From NCBI GenBank assembly GCA_020248265.1, contig JADCHX010000012.1, forward strand, positions 20,378 to 84,377: a DNA stretch of 64,000 nucleotides. The letters run 5' to 3'. The notes under the pieces were generated by a model that was not told where the DNA came from, searched no databases, and saw only the letters and a program-made list of their open reading frames with translations. The position numbers and the translations under genes were made by a program. Each line of letters opens with the position of its first letter. The stretch's first letter is position 1. Below are positions 59,177-63,342 of the stretch, in pieces. This DNA comes from Rhodocyclaceae bacterium. GTDB lineage: Bacteria > Pseudomonadota > Gammaproteobacteria > Burkholderiales > CAIKXV01.

Positions 59177-60766
59177 ATGACAGCCGCGAGCCATGACTGC
59201 ATCCTGATCCTCGATTTCGGTTCGCAGGTGACCCAGCTGATCGCACGCCGCGTGCGAGAGGCGAACGTGTACTGTGAAGTGCATCCGTGCGACCTGCCGG
59301 AGGCCGAGATCCGCCGGATCGCGCCCAAGGGCGTGATCCTGTCCGGCAGCCACATGTCGGCCTACGAAGAGTCGACCGATCGCGCGCCCCAGACGGTATT
59401 CGACCTCGGCGTGCCGGTGCTGGGTATCTGTTACGGCATGCAGACGATGGCGCAGCAACTGGGCGGCAAGGTCGAGAGCGGCGCGAACCGCGAGTTCGGC
59501 TTCGCCGAAGTTCGGGCGCGCGGCCACACATGGCTGCTCGACGGCATCGAGGATGCACGCAACGCCGAAGGGCACGGCCTGCTCAAGGTCTGGATGAGCC
59601 ACGGCGACAAGGTCACCGAACTGCCGCCTGGCTTCAAGCTGATGGCCTCCACCGACAGCTGCCCGATCGCAGGCATGGCCGACGAGGCACGCAACTTCTA
59701 CGGCGTGCAGTTCCACCCCGAGGTGACGCATACGCTGCAGGGCGGGCGGATTCTCGAGCGCTTCGTGATCGACATCTGCGAATGCGCGCCCGACTGGGTG
59801 ATGAGCGACTACGTCGCCGAGGCGAGCGAGCAGGTGAAAGCGCGGGTGGGCAGCGAAGAGGTGATCCTCGGCCTGTCCGGCGGCGTCGATTCGGCGGTGG
59901 CCGCTGCCCTCATCCACAAGGCGATTGGCGACCGCCTGACCTGCATCTTCGTCGATACAGGACTGCTGCGGCTGGGCGAGGGCGACCAGGTGATGGAGAC
60001 GCTGAACCGCCACCTCGGTGTGAAGGTGATCCGCATCGACGCCGGCCCACGCTTCCTCGGCGCATTGGAAGGCTGCGCCGACCCGGAAGCCAAGCGCAAG
60101 ATCATCGGTCGCGAGTTCGTGCATGTGTTCCAGGAAGAAGCCGCGAAGCTGCCGAACGCGAAGTGGCTGGCGCAGGGCACGATCTATCCGGACGTGATCG
60201 AGTCGGCCGGGGCCAAGACGAAGAAGGCCACGACCATCAAGAGCCACCACAACGTCGGTGGCCTGCCAGACACGCTGCACCTGAAGCTGCTCGAGCCGCT
60301 GCGCGAACTGTTCAAGGACGAGGTGCGCGAGCTCGGCCTCGCACTCGGGCTGCCGCGCGAGATGGTGTTCCGGCATCCATTCCCGGGACCGGGGCTGGGC
60401 GTGCGCATCCTCGGCGAAGTGAAGCCCAAGTATGCAGAACTGCTGCGCCGCGCCGATGCGATCTTCATCGACGAACTGCGCAAGACCTCGCACGAAGGAG
60501 TGAGCTGGTACGACCTGACCAGCCAGGCCTTCGCCGTGTTCCTGCCGGTGAAGGCGGTGGGCGTGATGGGCGACGGACGCACGTACGAGTATGTGGTTGC
60601 GCTGCGCGCGGTGCAGACCCAGGATTTCATGACTGCGCACTGGGCGCACCTGCCGCACGAACTGCTCGGGCGCGTGTCGAACCGGATCATCAATGAAGTA
60701 CGAGGGATAAACCGGGTCGTTTACGACATATCGGGGAAGCCGCCGGCGACGATCGAGTGGGAGTAG
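59177..60766 (+). CDS. guaA: GMP synthase (glutamine-hydrolysing)
   Basis: GATase domain ([14 protein letters not shown]), ATP-PPase SGGVDS motif, and C-terminal dimerisation domain ending ...PPATIEWE. Confidence 0.95.
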
Positions 60767-60767
60767 G
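60753..60767 (+). repeat. Left direct repeat (guaA 3' end)
   Basis: TCGAGTGGGAGTAGG, identical to 63328-63342. Confidence 0.8.
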
Positions 60768-60921
60768 TCGTCGAGGGCTGAATTAGAGCGTATTAAAAAT
60801 CAACAGGTTATGTTTTTTATCACCTATCCGAGAGACATCATGAACAGGATAGAGGTCACGGTCTAAGTACATGAATCGAATAGGGATGGGTCCTTTTTGA
60901 CGCTTCCTTCAACAAAAAGGG

Positions 60922-61087
60922 TTGACGTCAGATTGACGGTATTCTTGACGGTAGAAATTCGCGCCGATGTAGTTGCCGATAATCTACCGTCACACGAACT
61001 CCGGACCTGACGGCAGAAAAATCGACAGCAATCGCTGGCAAAACATGAAGTTGCCGCTTGTGTAGCCTGAGATTTTTCGTGACGGTA
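60922..61087. repeat. Left cluster of TGACGGTA motifs
   Basis: TGACGGTA occurs at 60934, 60946 and 61080. An inverted copy lies at 60985-60992. Variants are TGACGGCA at 61008 and TGACGTCA at 60923. Several copies extend to tTGACGGTAGAA. Confidence 0.8.
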
Positions 61088-61178
61088 GAAGTTGTGGTTC
61101 ATGGAAAAAGGCATCCACGGCCAACGTCGCCTCTATCCGTTGCTGGAGTTTTCGCCTCGCAGGGAAGGGGCCTTAGCG

Positions 61179-61221
61179 TTAGTACCAAAAACAATAAACG
61201 ATAACATTGGATATGTTATCG
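61179..61221 (+). promoter_or_regulatory. Candidate promoter with overlapping inverted-repeat operator of the wHTH/NTase operon
   Basis: TTAGTA (61179-61184), 17 nt spacer, TAACAT (61202-61207). The perfect 9-bp inverted repeat CGATAACAT-TGGAT-ATGTTATCG (61199-61221) covers the -10 element. Confidence 0.45.
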
Positions 61222-61257
61222 TGCAGGGTCCTTGTTTCACTTAGGCCCTCAATCAGC

Positions 61258-62241
61258 ATGGAAGCCGCCGTTCGCGCGTACCTGAAGAACACGCTCGGAA
61301 TCGACGCTCCGACCACCCTCTGGTCGGGCGTGGGCAGCTTGCCGTACTTCCTCGTGGATGCCTTCGAACTGAAGGCTCTGGCGATCCTGGGTCACCCCGT
61401 CCTGCTCGCCATCGACAAGCGAGCCGATCGCCCCGGCCTTGCCAGCATTCGCGCGCAGATCGACAAGATCCGCGAGGTAACCGGGCTCCCGGTGCTTTAC
61501 GCAACCGAGGCACTGGCCTCCTACGAACGCAAGCGGCTCATCGAGCAGAAGGTACCCTTCGTCGTCCCTGGCAACCAGCTCTATCTGCCCGACCTTGGCG
61601 TGGATCTGCGGGAGTACTTTCGCAAGCCGGCGACGCAGCCCCAGAGCGAGCTCAGCCCGGCCGCCCAGGCCATGCTGATCGCAGTGCTGCTGGGCAAGCC
61701 GTGGCGGGGGGAGTGGGAGCCTGCCGAGGTGCTCGGCCGTCTCGGCTATACCGCCATGACCGCCTCGCGCGCCTCGCGCGAGCTGGTGGCAACCGGGATA
61801 GCGCGTTCGGACAACGTCGCGAGGGTGCGGCGGCTGAAGACCGAGCGCACCGCCCGCGAGACCTGGGAGCATATCAAGCCCCTGCTGCGCAACCCCGTGA
61901 AACGCCGGGTCTGGGTGCTGCCGACCAGCGATCTTGTCGTGCCGGAGCTCAGGCTTGCGGGTCTCAGCGCCCTTGCGCGGCAGTCGATGCTGGTCGAACC
62001 CTCTTGGCCGACTTACGCGCTCAGCCCTTCGCAATGGAAGCTCGCTTCCCAGCAGGGCGCGAAGACGGTGCCCGAGCCTGAGCCCGGGGCCCTCCAGATG
62101 GAGCTTTGGAACTACAGCCCGGCCTTGGTGCCGGACACTTCGCTGGTCGATCCGCTGTCGCTGATGCTGAGCCTGCAGAGCGATGGCGACGATCGGGTAC
62201 AGCAGGCGCTGGCCGAGCTTGAGGAGCACTTGCCGTGGTGA
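61258..62241 (+). CDS. Winged-helix DNA-binding protein, AbiEi-like antitoxin candidate (atypically long)
   Basis: 327 aa counted from ATG 61258 (the track ORF starts at 61207). A central MarR/AbiEi-like wHTH region is present (SPAAQAMLIAVLL...EVLGRLGYTAMTASRASRELVATGIA). It overlaps the downstream NTase gene by 4-7 nt. Confidence 0.55.
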   Translation: MEAAVRAYLKNTLGIDAPTTLWSGVGSLPYFLVDAFELKALAILGHPVLLAIDKRADRPGLASIRAQIDKIREVTGLPVLYATEALASYERKRLIEQKVPFVVPGNQLYLPDLGVDLREYFRKPATQPQSELSPAAQAMLIAVLLGKPWRGEWEPAEVLGRLGYTAMTASRASRELVATGIARSDNVARVRRLKTERTARETWEHIKPLLRNPVKRRVWVLPTSDLVVPELRLAGLSALARQSMLVEPSWPTYALSPSQWKLASQQGAKTVPEPEPGALQMELWNYSPALVPDTSLVDPLSLMLSLQSDGDDRVQQALAELEEHLPW

Positions 62242-63011
62242 AAGGCCTGGATGTCTTTCGGAGCTGGTTCGCCGCGCATGGGGATGAGTTCGTCCTGATC
62301 GGCGGTACGGCCGCAACCCTCGCCCTAGAAGAGGCGGGGCTTGAGTTCCGCGCCACGAAGGATCTCGACATCGTGCTGCATGTGGAGGCTCTGACCCCGC
62401 GCTTTGGCGAGGTGTTCTGGAGGTTCATCGATGCGGGTGGCTACGAGATCCGCCAGGCCGCCGACACGGGCAGGCCGGTCTTCTATCGATTCCAGAAGCC
62501 GGGCAACCCGAGCTTTCCGGCGATGCTGGAACTGTTCAGCCGCGCGCCCGAAGGCCTCACGCTTGCGCAGGGCAGTCACCTGACCCCCATCCCGATCGAT
62601 GAGGCGGTGGAAAGCCTTTCGGCGATCCTTCTTGACGAGGACTACTACGACTTCATCCTGACCGGCAGGCGCGATCTCGATGGTCTGCCTTGGGTGGGCG
62701 AGGATCGGTTGATCCCGCTGAAGGCGAGCGCCTGGCTGGATCTTGGGCAGCGCCTCGCCCGCGGCGAGCAGGTGGATTCGCGCAATGTGCGCAAGCACGC
62801 GAACGACATCCTTCGACTGTCCCAACTGCTCGCACCCGAGGTTCGGGTGCCGCTGGTGCCCAGGATCGCCCAGGACTTGAGCCGCTTCCTCGATGCCATC
62901 GAGACCGATCCGTCGATTACGCCGGCGAGCGTAGGCGTGCGCGGTTCCCTGAAGGACGTGATCGGCCGGATCGCGCTGGCCTACTTGCTCGATCGGGGCG
63001 CTCAGCCATGA
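62235..63011 (+). CDS. Nucleotidyltransferase-fold protein, AbiEii-like toxin candidate
   Basis: Minimal NTase signature LIGGTAATLALEEAGLEFRATKDLDIVL (GG...DxD) and a later K...A...R...KHANDILRL block resembling AbiEii motif III. The start is GTG 62235 or GTG 62238. Confidence 0.6.
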   Translation: MVKGLDVFRSWFAAHGDEFVLIGGTAATLALEEAGLEFRATKDLDIVLHVEALTPRFGEVFWRFIDAGGYEIRQAADTGRPVFYRFQKPGNPSFPAMLELFSRAPEGLTLAQGSHLTPIPIDEAVESLSAILLDEDYYDFILTGRRDLDGLPWVGEDRLIPLKASAWLDLGQRLARGEQVDSRNVRKHANDILRLSQLLAPEVRVPLVPRIAQDLSRFLDAIETDPSITPASVGVRGSLKDVIGRIALAYLLDRGAQP

Positions 63012-63034
63012 CGCGGACGGTCAAGGTCGGCTGT

Positions 63035-63266
63035 TGACGGTAGAAAAAGCGCGTGAAAATCACGTTCAGACAAGCACTTAGATTGCTCGATGACGGTACG
63101 ACGAAAGCTGGTCGGAGGCTCGAAAGAGCAGGGTGGATGCTGTGCTTCGATGACCTCGCAAGGCCTGATAGTCCTCGATAGATCCCGAAAGGTGTATCCC
63201 GCGCCGATCGCCCGGAAACCCGCGCCAATGCTGAACCTCATCAAGATGACGGTATCTTTGACGGTA
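63035..63266 (+). repeat. Right cluster of TGACGGTA motifs
   Basis: TGACGGTA occurs at 63035, 63091, 63247 and 63259, all on the + strand. The last two are 12 bp apart, as are the two at 60934/60946. Confidence 0.8.
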
Positions 63267-63327
63267 TCCAGTAGCCTTCCGCCCAAGAACGCATGGCGCA
63301 ACAAGGACTTAGCGGCTCAATTGATGT

Positions 63328-63342
63328 TCGAGTGGGAGTAGG
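63328..63342 (+). repeat. Right direct repeat (vestigial guaA 3' end)
   Basis: TCGAGTGGGAGTAGG, preceded by codons reading ...FEWE-stop. Confidence 0.8.

What the first reader, a model, noticed from the sequence alone, without database searches (positions are those of the whole stretch)
60753..63342. Integrase-less 2.6-kb mini-island inserted in the 3' end of guaA
The last 15 nt of guaA, TCGAGTGGGAGTAGG (codons ...EWE-stop plus 1 nt), recur at 63328-63342. There they are preceded by a frame reading ...FEWE-stop, a displaced gene tail. Sequence composition switches to AT-rich immediately after the left copy (aattagagcgtattaaaaatcaacaggttatgtttttt...) and returns to high GC after the right copy. 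The interior has no recombinase gene, only a two-gene AbiE-like module and arrays of a short motif near both ends. The guaA 3' end has been reported as an integration site for integrase-bearing islands such as GIsul2-type elements. This could therefore be a cis-mobilisable element, or the minimal remnant of such an island retained for its toxin-antitoxin module.
Basis: partly seen in the sequence, partly recalled or inferred. Interest (0 to 1): 0.65.

Follow-up and report, generated by a model that had tools for sequence, protein, structure and literature searches.

The report
Integrase-less mini-island at guaA end
A 2.6-kb insertion after guaA is the stripped-down remnant of a GIsul2-type genomic island: it kept both recombination ends and a two-gene toxin-antitoxin-like module but lost its integrase, which is a known kind of element (a CIME) in a new family.

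Summary
TCGAGTGGGAGTAGG occurs exactly twice in the window (60753, 63328). Eight of the window's nine TGACGGTA copies lie in the two non-coding arms. No recombinase lies inside the element or within 10 kb downstream.

The repeat contains GAGTGGGA, the published att core of GIsul2 at the guaA 3' end. The left arm carries five TGACGGTA sites at offsets 0, +12, +51 (inverted), +74 and +146. Elements that do encode a 419-aa GIsul2-family integrase right after guaA show the same layout. The right arm has a TGACGGTA doublet at -83/-71 from the core, as do most of 24 other element right ends examined.

An 82-nt remnant of an AAA_21 ATPase gene (61090-61171) marks the internal deletion that removed the integrase. 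The element is 98-100% identical in a genome whose guaA is only about 75% identical, and identity breaks exactly at the cores.

The cargo is a MarR-type regulator plus a distant AbiEii-like nucleotidyltransferase. It is AbiE-like in layout, but membership of AbiE is not established.

Verdict: a cis-mobilisable element (CIME) derived from a guaA-specific island, with substrate sites that look intact. Mobilisation in trans is inferred, not shown. It is a new member of a known kind and of moderate interest.

The parts
59177..60766 (+). guaA (GMP synthase), the target gene. Its last codons, ...IEWE-stop, lie inside the att core.
   Evidence: ORF. Pfam GATase and GMP_synt_C on the identical product.
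60753..60767 (+). attL core copy, TCGAGTGGGAGTAGG. GAGTGGGA lies at 60755-60762.
   Evidence: The core equals the published GIsul2 core (PMC9376610). Identity to L007 jumps from about 77% to 100% here.
60768..61089 (+). Left (P') arm, AT-rich. It holds five arm-type sites: 60934-60941, 60946-60953, 60985-60992 (inverted), 61008-61015 (TGACGGCA) and 61080-61087. It corresponds to the region between the core and the int start codon in integrase-bearing relatives.
   Evidence: In the alignment with L092, L094, L095 and L096, all five sites are invariant while the flanks diverge. Offsets are 0, 12, 51, 74, 146 here and 0, 12, 50, 73, 145 in L095.
61090..61171 (+). 3' remnant of an AAA_21 ATPase gene. 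This is the scar of the internal deletion that removed int and the island interior.
   Evidence: 88% nt identity to the 3' end of the ATPase gene that precedes ORF1 in L009 and L010. The L010 protein hits Pfam AAA_21 at E=3.5e-28.
61198..61222 (.). Palindrome ACGATAACAT-N5-ATGTTATCGT, the presumed operator of the ORF1-ORF2 operon.
   Evidence: The CGATAACA-N7-TGTTATCG motif is conserved just upstream of ORF1 in distant relatives.
61258..62241 (+). ORF1, 327 aa. It has a central MarR-type winged helix-turn-helix flanked by domains of unknown function. Presumed regulator or antitoxin.
   Evidence: No Pfam hit for the protein itself. MarR_2 hits in 15 of 30 family representatives, best E=3.8e-6. 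Borderline PDB hits to MarR-family regulators. The family has 3175 clusters at 50% identity.
62235..63011 (+). ORF2, 258 aa. It overlaps ORF1 (GTGGTGA). It is a nucleotidyltransferase-fold protein with a distant AbiEii-like N-terminal motif. Presumed toxin or effector.
   Evidence: Pfam AbiEii E=8e-4, 19.8 bits, below the cut-off of 22.5. 15 of 16 relatives match, best E=2e-5. hhalign against classical AbiEii covers only the NTase motif, probability 19%.
63012..63327 (+). Right (P) arm. It holds four arm-type sites: 63035-63042, 63091-63098, and a doublet at 63247-63254 and 63259-63266. A TCGATAGA motif lies at 63175-63182 and a conserved block at 63209-63233.
   Evidence: The doublet at exactly -83/-71 from the core, and the TCGATAGA repeats, recur in most of the 24 other right ends examined. 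14 doublets lie 83 nt before a core across the fetched loci.
63328..63342 (+). attR core copy, TCGAGTGGGAGTAGG. GAGTGGGA lies at 63330-63337. Native flank follows.
   Evidence: Identity to L007, L089 and L090 ends at 63335, inside this core.

Best explanation
The element (60768-63342, 2575 bp) is a CIME: an internally deleted derivative of a guaA-specific integrative element whose tyrosine integrase belongs to the GIsul2 family.

The ancestor integrated by recombination within the GAGTGGGA overlap shared by its attP and the last codons of guaA. This left guaA intact and duplicated the core.

A later deletion ran from just after the fifth left-arm site to the last roughly 80 nt of an AAA_21 ATPase gene. 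It removed int and the island interior. What remains is attL, the complete P' arm, a MarR-type regulator plus AbiEii-like nucleotidyltransferase operon, the complete P arm and attR.

The TGACGGTA repeats are arm-type sites for the integrase's N-terminal Arm-DNA-bind_3 domain. This is inferred from their invariance and fixed positions.

The element cannot move on its own. It still presents what appear to be all the substrate sites. A cognate integrase (plus a recombination directionality factor) supplied in trans could excise it as a 2575-bp circle and re-insert it. An island that lands in its attR (accretion) could carry it along.

The TA-like operon plausibly explains why this piece survived the decay.

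Shown: the cores, the arm homology, the deletion scar, the absence of int, and near-identical copies in a different host. Inferred: protein-site binding, present-day mobilisability, and TA function.
For: - Core and repeat statistics. GAGTGGGA is the GIsul2 att core at the guaA 3' end, and GIsul2 Int also moves an integrase-less unit bounded by att sites (PMC9376610).
- Integrases of 419 aa (Arm-DNA-bind_3, Phage_int_SAM_3, Phage_int_M, Phage_integrase) sit directly after guaA in L092-L096.
- The arm between their core and the int ATG has TGACGGTA at offsets 0, 12, 50(-), 73 and 145. The window has 0, 12, 51(-), 74 and 146.
- Of 24 other right ends examined, 19 keep both copies of the doublet at -83/-71 (the second reads TGACGGCA in two of them). 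The other five keep only one copy or lie at a different distance.
- All 35 doublets in 1.26 Mb of related loci are on the guaA strand. 28 of them lie at fixed distances from a core.
- Deletion scar at 61090-61171.
- L007 has a guaA about 75% identical at the nucleotide level but carries the element at 98-100% identity. The breaks fall at 60757 and 63335.
- Conspecific strains L089 and L090, and also L007, have the element abutting an integrase remnant that is 52% identical to GIsul2 Int.
- Ten core-to-core bounded elements of 1.1-9.6 kb in related loci all lack an integrase.
- No integrase lies inside the element or within 10 kb downstream.
- The CIME definition and the accretion model come from PMC5704250.
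Against: - No empty attB junction and no circular attP junction was found in the JGI metagenome contigs.
- All 24 conspecific contigs read carry the element: 22 have the window's arrangement and two (L089, L090) the composite, so no empty site was seen.
- No functional cognate integrase has been shown in this genome. The adjacent integrase in sister strains is truncated at residues 68 and 328 and interrupted by an IS21-family element.
- The window's left arm lacks the clear TCTATCGA repeats that integrase-bearing relatives have between the core and the doublet. Its core-to-doublet distance is 179 nt, against 128-129 nt in those relatives. Distances of 179-183 nt do occur in L039, L047, L048 and L076.
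- All comparison sequences are MAG or metagenome contigs, so chimeric assembly of L007 cannot be fully excluded. The host sequences share only 28 nt upstream of the junction.
Confidence: 0.78

Rival explanations
1. Same origin, but now an immobile fossil. The att sites are relics that no integrase in these hosts can use, and the segment persists only because the TA-like operon penalises its loss.
For: All 24 conspecific contigs read carry the element, and no attB or attP junctions were found. The neighbouring integrase in sister strains is doubly truncated and IS21-disrupted. TCTATCGA-type repeats are degenerate in the left arm.
Against: All nine arm-type sites and both cores are intact, and the core copies are identical. 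A 98-100% identical copy sits at the same site in a host whose guaA is about 75% identical. Between conspecific strains the element differs 15/2568 while the flank differs 6/6591, Fisher p=4e-5, which points to exchange.
Confidence: 0.18
2. A self-mobilising element in which ORF1 (DNA-binding) and ORF2 (nucleotidyltransferase fold) form a new kind of recombination machinery that acts on the TGACGGTA arrays.
For: The ORF1-ORF2 pair recurs next to att arms in several diverged lineages. ORF1 has unannotated domains with weak, non-significant fold hits to nucleases and integrase cores.
Against: The same TGACGGTA layout surrounds the int promoter in elements that have an integrase and lack ORF1-ORF2 nearby. 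Other mini-elements with the same arms carry AbiE, HigBA or VapBC-like cargo instead. More than half of the 80 ORF1-ORF2 loci have no GAGTGGGA site nearby. The family has its own distinct palindromic operator. The fold hits have E>=0.027 and TM about 0.2 on a model with mean pLDDT 66.
Confidence: 0.02
3. Not an insertion at all: a native guaA-downstream region in which a short repeat arose by chance or by local duplication.
For: The cargo genes have host-like GC content.
Against: Repeat statistics. Sharp identity breaks at both cores against L007. Homologous arms bound unrelated cargo in many genomes. A pseudogene scar is present.
Confidence: 0.01

Closest known systems
CIMEs (cis-mobilisable elements), defined for ICESt1/ICESt3-type elements of Streptococcus; review PMC5704250
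   Same: [quoted passage not shown] It sits at the 3' end of a conserved gene. It is found in tandem with an integrase-bearing relative in sister strains, which matches the accretion model.
   Different: The host clade differs (Burkholderiales-type betaproteobacteria), as do the integrase family and the target gene. Mobilisation has not been tested here.
GIsul2 and its internal CR2-sul2 unit (PMC9376610)
   Same: The target is the same (guaA 3' end) and the core is the same (GAGTGGGA). The integrase remnant next to the element in L007, L089 and L090 is 52% identical to GIsul2 Int. GIsul2 Int experimentally moves an integrase-less unit bounded by att sites. The upstream region of GIsul2 int has a comparable layout: repeated 8-mers, the last one about 25 nt before the ATG after a T-run.
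   Different: This element has no int, alpA, rep or trb genes. The arm motif is TGACGGTA here and a CATGGYAT-like motif in GIsul2. The cargo is a TA-like operon, not resistance genes.
PIMEs, BcenGI2 and the IncP island: int+alpA integrative mobilisable elements at guaA (bioRxiv 10.64898/2026.01.12.698999)
   Same: They use the same attB next to guaA. They form a widespread family in Pseudomonadota.
   Different: PIMEs are defined by core genes (int, alpA and others), and none of these is present here.
AbiE type IV toxin-antitoxin / abortive infection system (AbiEi and AbiEii)
   Same: A bicistronic operon with overlapping genes, a DNA-binding first gene, a nucleotidyltransferase-fold second gene and a palindromic operator upstream.
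   Different: ORF2 scores below the Pfam AbiEii cut-off and aligns only over the NTase motif. ORF1 shows no similarity to AbiEi and instead has a MarR-type wHTH in the middle of a 327-aa protein.

Membership tests
CIME (cis-mobilisable element) | Retains attL and attR of a site-specific integrative element | tested here: met
   Identical 15-nt cores. Both arms are homologous to, and share site layout with, arms of integrase-bearing and other family members.
CIME (cis-mobilisable element) | Lacks its own integration and transfer genes | tested here: met
   No recombinase or transfer gene in any frame of the interior. None within 10 kb downstream.
CIME (cis-mobilisable element) | Derived by decay of an ICE or IME | tested here: met
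   The left arm equals the core-to-int-ATG region of integrase-bearing elements, with int missing. An AAA_21 ATPase 3' remnant lies at the deletion junction.
CIME (cis-mobilisable element) | Can be excised or transferred when a related functional element supplies the integrase (accretion-mobilisation) | not testable with these tools
   Indirect evidence only. There is a near-identical copy in a host with about 75% identical guaA, and a tandem with an integrase remnant in L007, L089 and L090. attB and attP junction scans found nothing.
GIsul2 / PIME-type guaA islands | Integration at the guaA 3' end with core GAGTGGGA | tested here: met
GIsul2 / PIME-type guaA islands | Encodes a GIsul2-family tyrosine integrase (and alpA) | tested here: not met
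   No int or alpA in the element. Family integrases occur only in relatives or as a truncated neighbour in sister strains.
AbiE (AbiEi/AbiEii) toxin-antitoxin | Toxin matches AbiEii (PF08843) above the curated threshold | tested here: not met
   19.8 bits against a cut-off of 22.5, over residues 11-73 only. 15 of 16 relatives give weak hits. hhalign against classical AbiEii gives probability 19%.
AbiE (AbiEi/AbiEii) toxin-antitoxin | Antitoxin is an AbiEi-family regulator | tested here: not met
   No AbiEi Pfam hit. hhalign against AbiEi gives probability 0.1%. The wHTH is MarR-type.
AbiE (AbiEi/AbiEii) toxin-antitoxin | Overlapping bicistronic operon with an upstream repeat operator | tested here: met
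   The genes overlap at 62235-62241. The conserved palindrome lies at 61198-61222.
AbiE (AbiEi/AbiEii) toxin-antitoxin | Toxicity neutralised by the partner; phage abortive infection | not testable with these tools
   No experimental data.

The most novel reading that the evidence does not exclude
The guaA 3' end of Burkholderiales-type bacteria may work as an integron-like platform. Under this reading, small integrase-less cassettes, each consisting of core, P' arm, one TA or defence module, P arm and core, are not just debris. They would be satellites selected to keep a full set of arm-type sites, so that GIsul2-family integrases of passing ICEs and IMEs stack, shuffle and spread them in trans. 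The window's element would be one such cassette.
Probability: 0.25. Interest if true: 0.65.

Novelty: new member of a known kind. Interest (0 to 1): 0.4.

Why it matters
- It gives a clean, sequence-level example of how a guaA island decays to a minimal element of att sites plus a TA-like module.
- It defines the probable arm-type site layout for one branch of the GIsul2 integrase family: TGACGGTA, five sites on the int side and four on the far side, at fixed distances from the GAGTGGGA core. The GIsul2 mobility paper read here does not mention arm sites (the term 'arm' occurs 0 times).
- It shows that integrase-less TA and defence cassettes pile up in tandem behind guaA in many environmental betaproteobacteria.
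- If such cassettes are mobilised in trans, guaA would be a general exchange point for defence and addiction modules.
- The same logic would apply to the resistance-bearing GIsul2 relatives in pathogens.

Tried and rejected
- **Integrase remnant in the left arm.** A weak tblastn hit suggested an integrase remnant at 61097-61177. A focused search gave only noise. The segment is instead the 3' end of an AAA_21 ATPase gene.
- **The 83-aa ORF 63090-63341 as a real gene or displaced guaA tail.** Rejected. Substitutions are spread evenly over codon positions and two relatives carry stop codons.
- **RNA element in the arms.** No Rfam match at E<=1.
- **Empty site or circular form.** Exact attB and attP junction patterns gave 0 hits in the JGI metagenome contigs. 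All 24 contigs read that encode the identical GuaA carry the element.
- **Structure-based function.** The AlphaFold models were poor: ORF2 mean pLDDT 48 and ORF1 66. Foldseek of ORF1 against the PDB gave nothing at E<=0.001. Profile searches of the PDB gave only borderline MarR hits for ORF1 and nothing meaningful for ORF2.
- **Other libraries.** NCBIfam, PADLOC and PHROGs gave nothing useful for the cargo.
- **Plasmid collection.** It holds no copy of the element, only distant ORF2-like genes.
- **Regex screen for tyrosine recombinases in 80 related loci.** It found essentially none. tblastn found an intact integrase next to the module only in L080. That integrase belongs to a different subfamily and the locus is not at guaA.

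
Full report

Yes. TCGAGTGGGAGTAGG occurs exactly twice in the 64-kb window, at 60753-60767 (the last codons of guaA, the stop codon and one further base) and at 63328-63342. With up to two mismatches allowed, 0.08 matches are expected, and none of 100 shuffles gave two. Identity extends to 18 of 20 nt. The spacing is 2575 bp.

TGACGGTA occurs nine times in the window against 0.58 expected. 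Eight copies lie in the two non-coding arms:
- left arm: 60934, 60946, 60985 (inverted) and 61080;
- right arm: 63035, 63091, 63247 and 63259.

A TGACGGCA variant lies at 61008.

The interior has two overlapping genes, 61258-62241 and 62235-63011, and no recombinase in any frame.

Two details of the description need correction.
- Only the left arm is AT-rich (44-52% GC). The cargo is 64-72% GC, like the host, so composition does not return to high GC at the right copy.
- The ORF ending ...FEWE-stop (63090-63341) is not a displaced gene tail and is not coding. Substitutions against eight homologous arms are spread evenly over codon positions, and two relatives carry stop codons.

**2. What lies beyond the window?**

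The source contigs (MAGs GCA_0202481xx and a Logan assembly) show no integrase in the 10 kb downstream. The genes there are a small membrane protein, a potassium transporter and a two-component system.

**3. Link to GIsul2.**

The repeat contains GAGTGGGA. This is the published core of the 19-bp att sites of GIsul2 at the guaA 3' end. The same paper shows that GIsul2 Int also excises and integrates an integrase-less sub-unit (CR2-sul2) bounded by att sites (PMC9376610). A recent preprint describes int+alpA mobilisable elements at guaA as widespread in Pseudomonadota.

**4. Relatives of the cargo.**

The ORF1-ORF2 pair has thousands of homologues. A genome scan with an ORF1 alignment found 269 loci, of which 80 were fetched, mostly Burkholderiales-type MAGs.

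In many of them guaA lies directly upstream. Sites of the form ...gttgatgatcGAGTGGGAgtag... bound segments downstream of guaA, often in tandem.

Ten segments are bounded core-to-core. They measure 1.1-9.6 kb and none contains an integrase. Their cargo includes classical AbiEi/AbiEii, HigBA, a VapBC-like pair and a TOTE conflict-system gene. Elements with only one mapped end add a Fic protein (L011) and an AAA_21 ATPase (L010).

**5. Evidence for a discrete, recently transferred element.**

Contig L007 has a guaA that is about 58-90% identical per 60-nt window (about 75% overall). It carries the element at 98-100% identity. The switch falls at 60757 on the left and identity is lost after 63335 on the right, inside the two cores.

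Between conspecific strains (identical GuaA protein), the element differs at 15 of 2568 positions while 6.6 kb of flank differs at 6 positions. Fisher p=4e-5.

**6. The missing integrase.**

In L007, and in two conspecific contigs (L089, L090), the right end reads ...GATGTTCGAGTGG|AGCGCTGCATGGAAGC... This joins half a core to codon 68 of an integrase gene that also stops at residue 328. In L089 an IS21-family element interrupts it. That fragment is 52% identical to GIsul2 Int.

Full-length 419-aa relatives, 88-95% identical to the fragment, have the domains Arm-DNA-bind_3, Phage_int_SAM_3, Phage_int_M and Phage_integrase. They sit directly after guaA on the same strand. One example lies on a 1-Mb contig, followed within 10 kb by relaxase (TraI_2), coupling-protein (TraG-D_C) and TrbC genes.

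**7. The arms.**

*Left arm.* In those integrase-bearing elements, the roughly 300 bp between the core and the int ATG carries TGACGGTA at offsets 0, +12, +50 (inverted), +73 and +145. The window's left arm has them at 0, +12, +51 (inverted), +74 and +146. In the alignment all five sites are invariant while the sequence between them has diverged.

*Right arm.* Of 24 other right ends of family members with unrelated cargo:
- 19 keep both copies of a TGACGGTA-N4-TGACGGTA doublet at -83/-71 from the core (the second copy reads TGACGGCA in two of them);
- most also carry TCGATAGA repeats about 150 nt upstream and a distal site at about -295 to -319.

The window follows this pattern.

*Across all loci.* Over 1.26 Mb of fetched loci, all 35 doublets lie on the guaA strand. 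Fourteen sit 83 nt before a core and fourteen sit 128-183 nt after one.

These are the properties expected of arm-type integrase sites in a lambda-like attP. Binding itself is inferred. GIsul2's own int upstream region has a comparable layout with a different 8-mer.

**8. How the mini-island arose.**

Immediately after the fifth left-arm site, 61090-61171 is 88% identical to the 3' end of an AAA_21 ATPase gene. In L009 and L010 that gene precedes ORF1 inside a larger island.

So a single internal deletion removed int and the island interior and joined the int-proximal arm to the far-end cargo.

Other lineages (L039, L047, L048, L076) have the left arm followed by the ORF1 operator with no ATPase remnant between them. 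L048 also has a complete arm-AbiE-arm mini-element. Integrase-less derivatives are therefore recurrent.

**9. The cargo.**

*ORF2.* It matches Pfam AbiEii only weakly (E=8e-4, below the curated cut-off, N-terminal nucleotidyltransferase motif only). Fifteen of sixteen relatives match similarly. A profile comparison with classical AbiEii covers only that motif.

*ORF1.* It has no AbiEi similarity. It has a central MarR-type wHTH. It belongs to a large unannotated family of 3175 clusters at 50% identity.

*Operator.* A palindrome, CGATAACA-N7-TGTTATCG (61198-61222), is conserved upstream of ORF1 across the family. It is the likely operator and is distinct from the TGACGGTA sites.

The pair is TA-like in architecture. 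Membership of AbiE is not established, and its function is inferred. Structure prediction and fold search were uninformative.

**10. Mechanism and its rivals.**

The best-supported reading is a CIME in the sense of PMC5704250. It is a decayed guaA-specific element that keeps what appear to be intact attL and attR and can only move if a cognate integrase acts in trans or after accretion.

The main rival is that it is now an inert fossil held in place by its TA-like operon. In favour of that rival:
- no attB or attP junctions were found;
- the element is present in all 24 conspecific contigs read;
- the only neighbouring integrase seen is broken.

Self-mobilisation by ORF1 and ORF2, and a chance repeat, are contradicted and.

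**11. Novelty.**

The kind of element is known: CIMEs, and the GIsul2 Int acting on an integrase-less unit. What is new here is this family, its arm-site map and the tandem stacks of TA and defence mini-cassettes behind guaA. The verdict is a new member of a known kind, of moderate interest.

Noticed in passing
L012:4647-9816; L022:3944-5046; L048:7056-9542; L081:7360-19081; L027:9601-11859; L031:9600-12398: Tandem stacks of small integrase-less segments sit behind guaA. Each is bounded by GAGTGGGA cores. Each carries one TA or defence module: AbiEi/AbiEii, HigBA, a VapBC-like pair, or ORF1-ORF2. The arrangement resembles a cassette array.
   Followed up: partly
L007:10676-11460; L089:10100-13300; L090:10100-10387: The same odd junction, half core GAGTGG fused to integrase codon 68, occurs in another genus-level host and in two conspecific strains. 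The same second truncation at residue 328 occurs in L007 and L089. L089 has an IS21-family insertion at residue 143. L090's contig ends at that same point, so its 3' truncation cannot be seen. The composite with a dead integrase seems to have spread as a unit.
   Followed up: partly
L011:159-2451; L099/L100 (ORF1 followed by a 375-aa Fic gene); L013:9953-12574; L014:9953-11690: Close ORF1 homologues (82-91% identical) are followed not by ORF2 but by a Fic/DOC protein, a classical AbiEii, or a HigB/HigA pair. ORF1 may be a modular regulator that pairs with different effectors, or ORF2 may be replaced often.
   Followed up: no
window 61258-62241 and alignment A6: ORF1 belongs to a large, conserved family of about 330-aa proteins with no Pfam model: 3175 clusters at 50% identity, 1206 of them at E<=1e-30. 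Only the central MarR-type wHTH is recognisable. The N- and C-terminal domains are unassigned.
   Followed up: partly
window 61711-61719: A third copy of GAGTGGGAG lies inside ORF1 (codons ...EWE...). It is conserved in the ORF1 homologues of L007-L015 (82-98% identical), but its flanks do not resemble the att context. It is probably chance, though it could act as a secondary site.
   Followed up: no
L087:1250-1535 (GIsul2 in pAB3, NZ_CP012005.1): The region upstream of GIsul2 int carries repeated CATGGYAT/ATGCCAT-type 7- and 8-mers. The last copy follows a T-run about 25 nt before the int ATG. This mirrors the TGACGGTA layout but with a different motif.
   Followed up: partly
L080:8345-11763: ORF1-ORF2 lies directly downstream of an intact P4-type integrase (427 aa, 32% identical to GIsul2 Int) in a 3.7-Mb chromosome. 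No guaA lies within 10 kb. The module also travels with other integrase families.
   Followed up: no
L044:11748-14633; L081:12229-18611: Larger core-bounded elements carry apparent defence systems: a TOTE conflict-system AEP-helicase gene in L044, and a four-gene cluster with a 1231-aa protein in L081. Neither contains an integrase.
   Followed up: no
window 60768-63335 compared with L089 and L090: Between strains with identical GuaA, the element is several-fold more divergent than 6.6 kb of upstream flank: 15/2568 and 8/2568 against 6/6591. Three differences are shared with L007. This suggests separate element lineages at the same site within one species.
   Followed up: partly
window 63209-63233: A 25-nt block, CGCCCGGAAACCCGCGCCAATGCTG, in the right arm is nearly invariant in one subgroup of right arms and absent from another subgroup that still keeps the TGACGGTA and TCGATAGA positions. 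It may be a binding site for an accessory factor.
   Followed up: no
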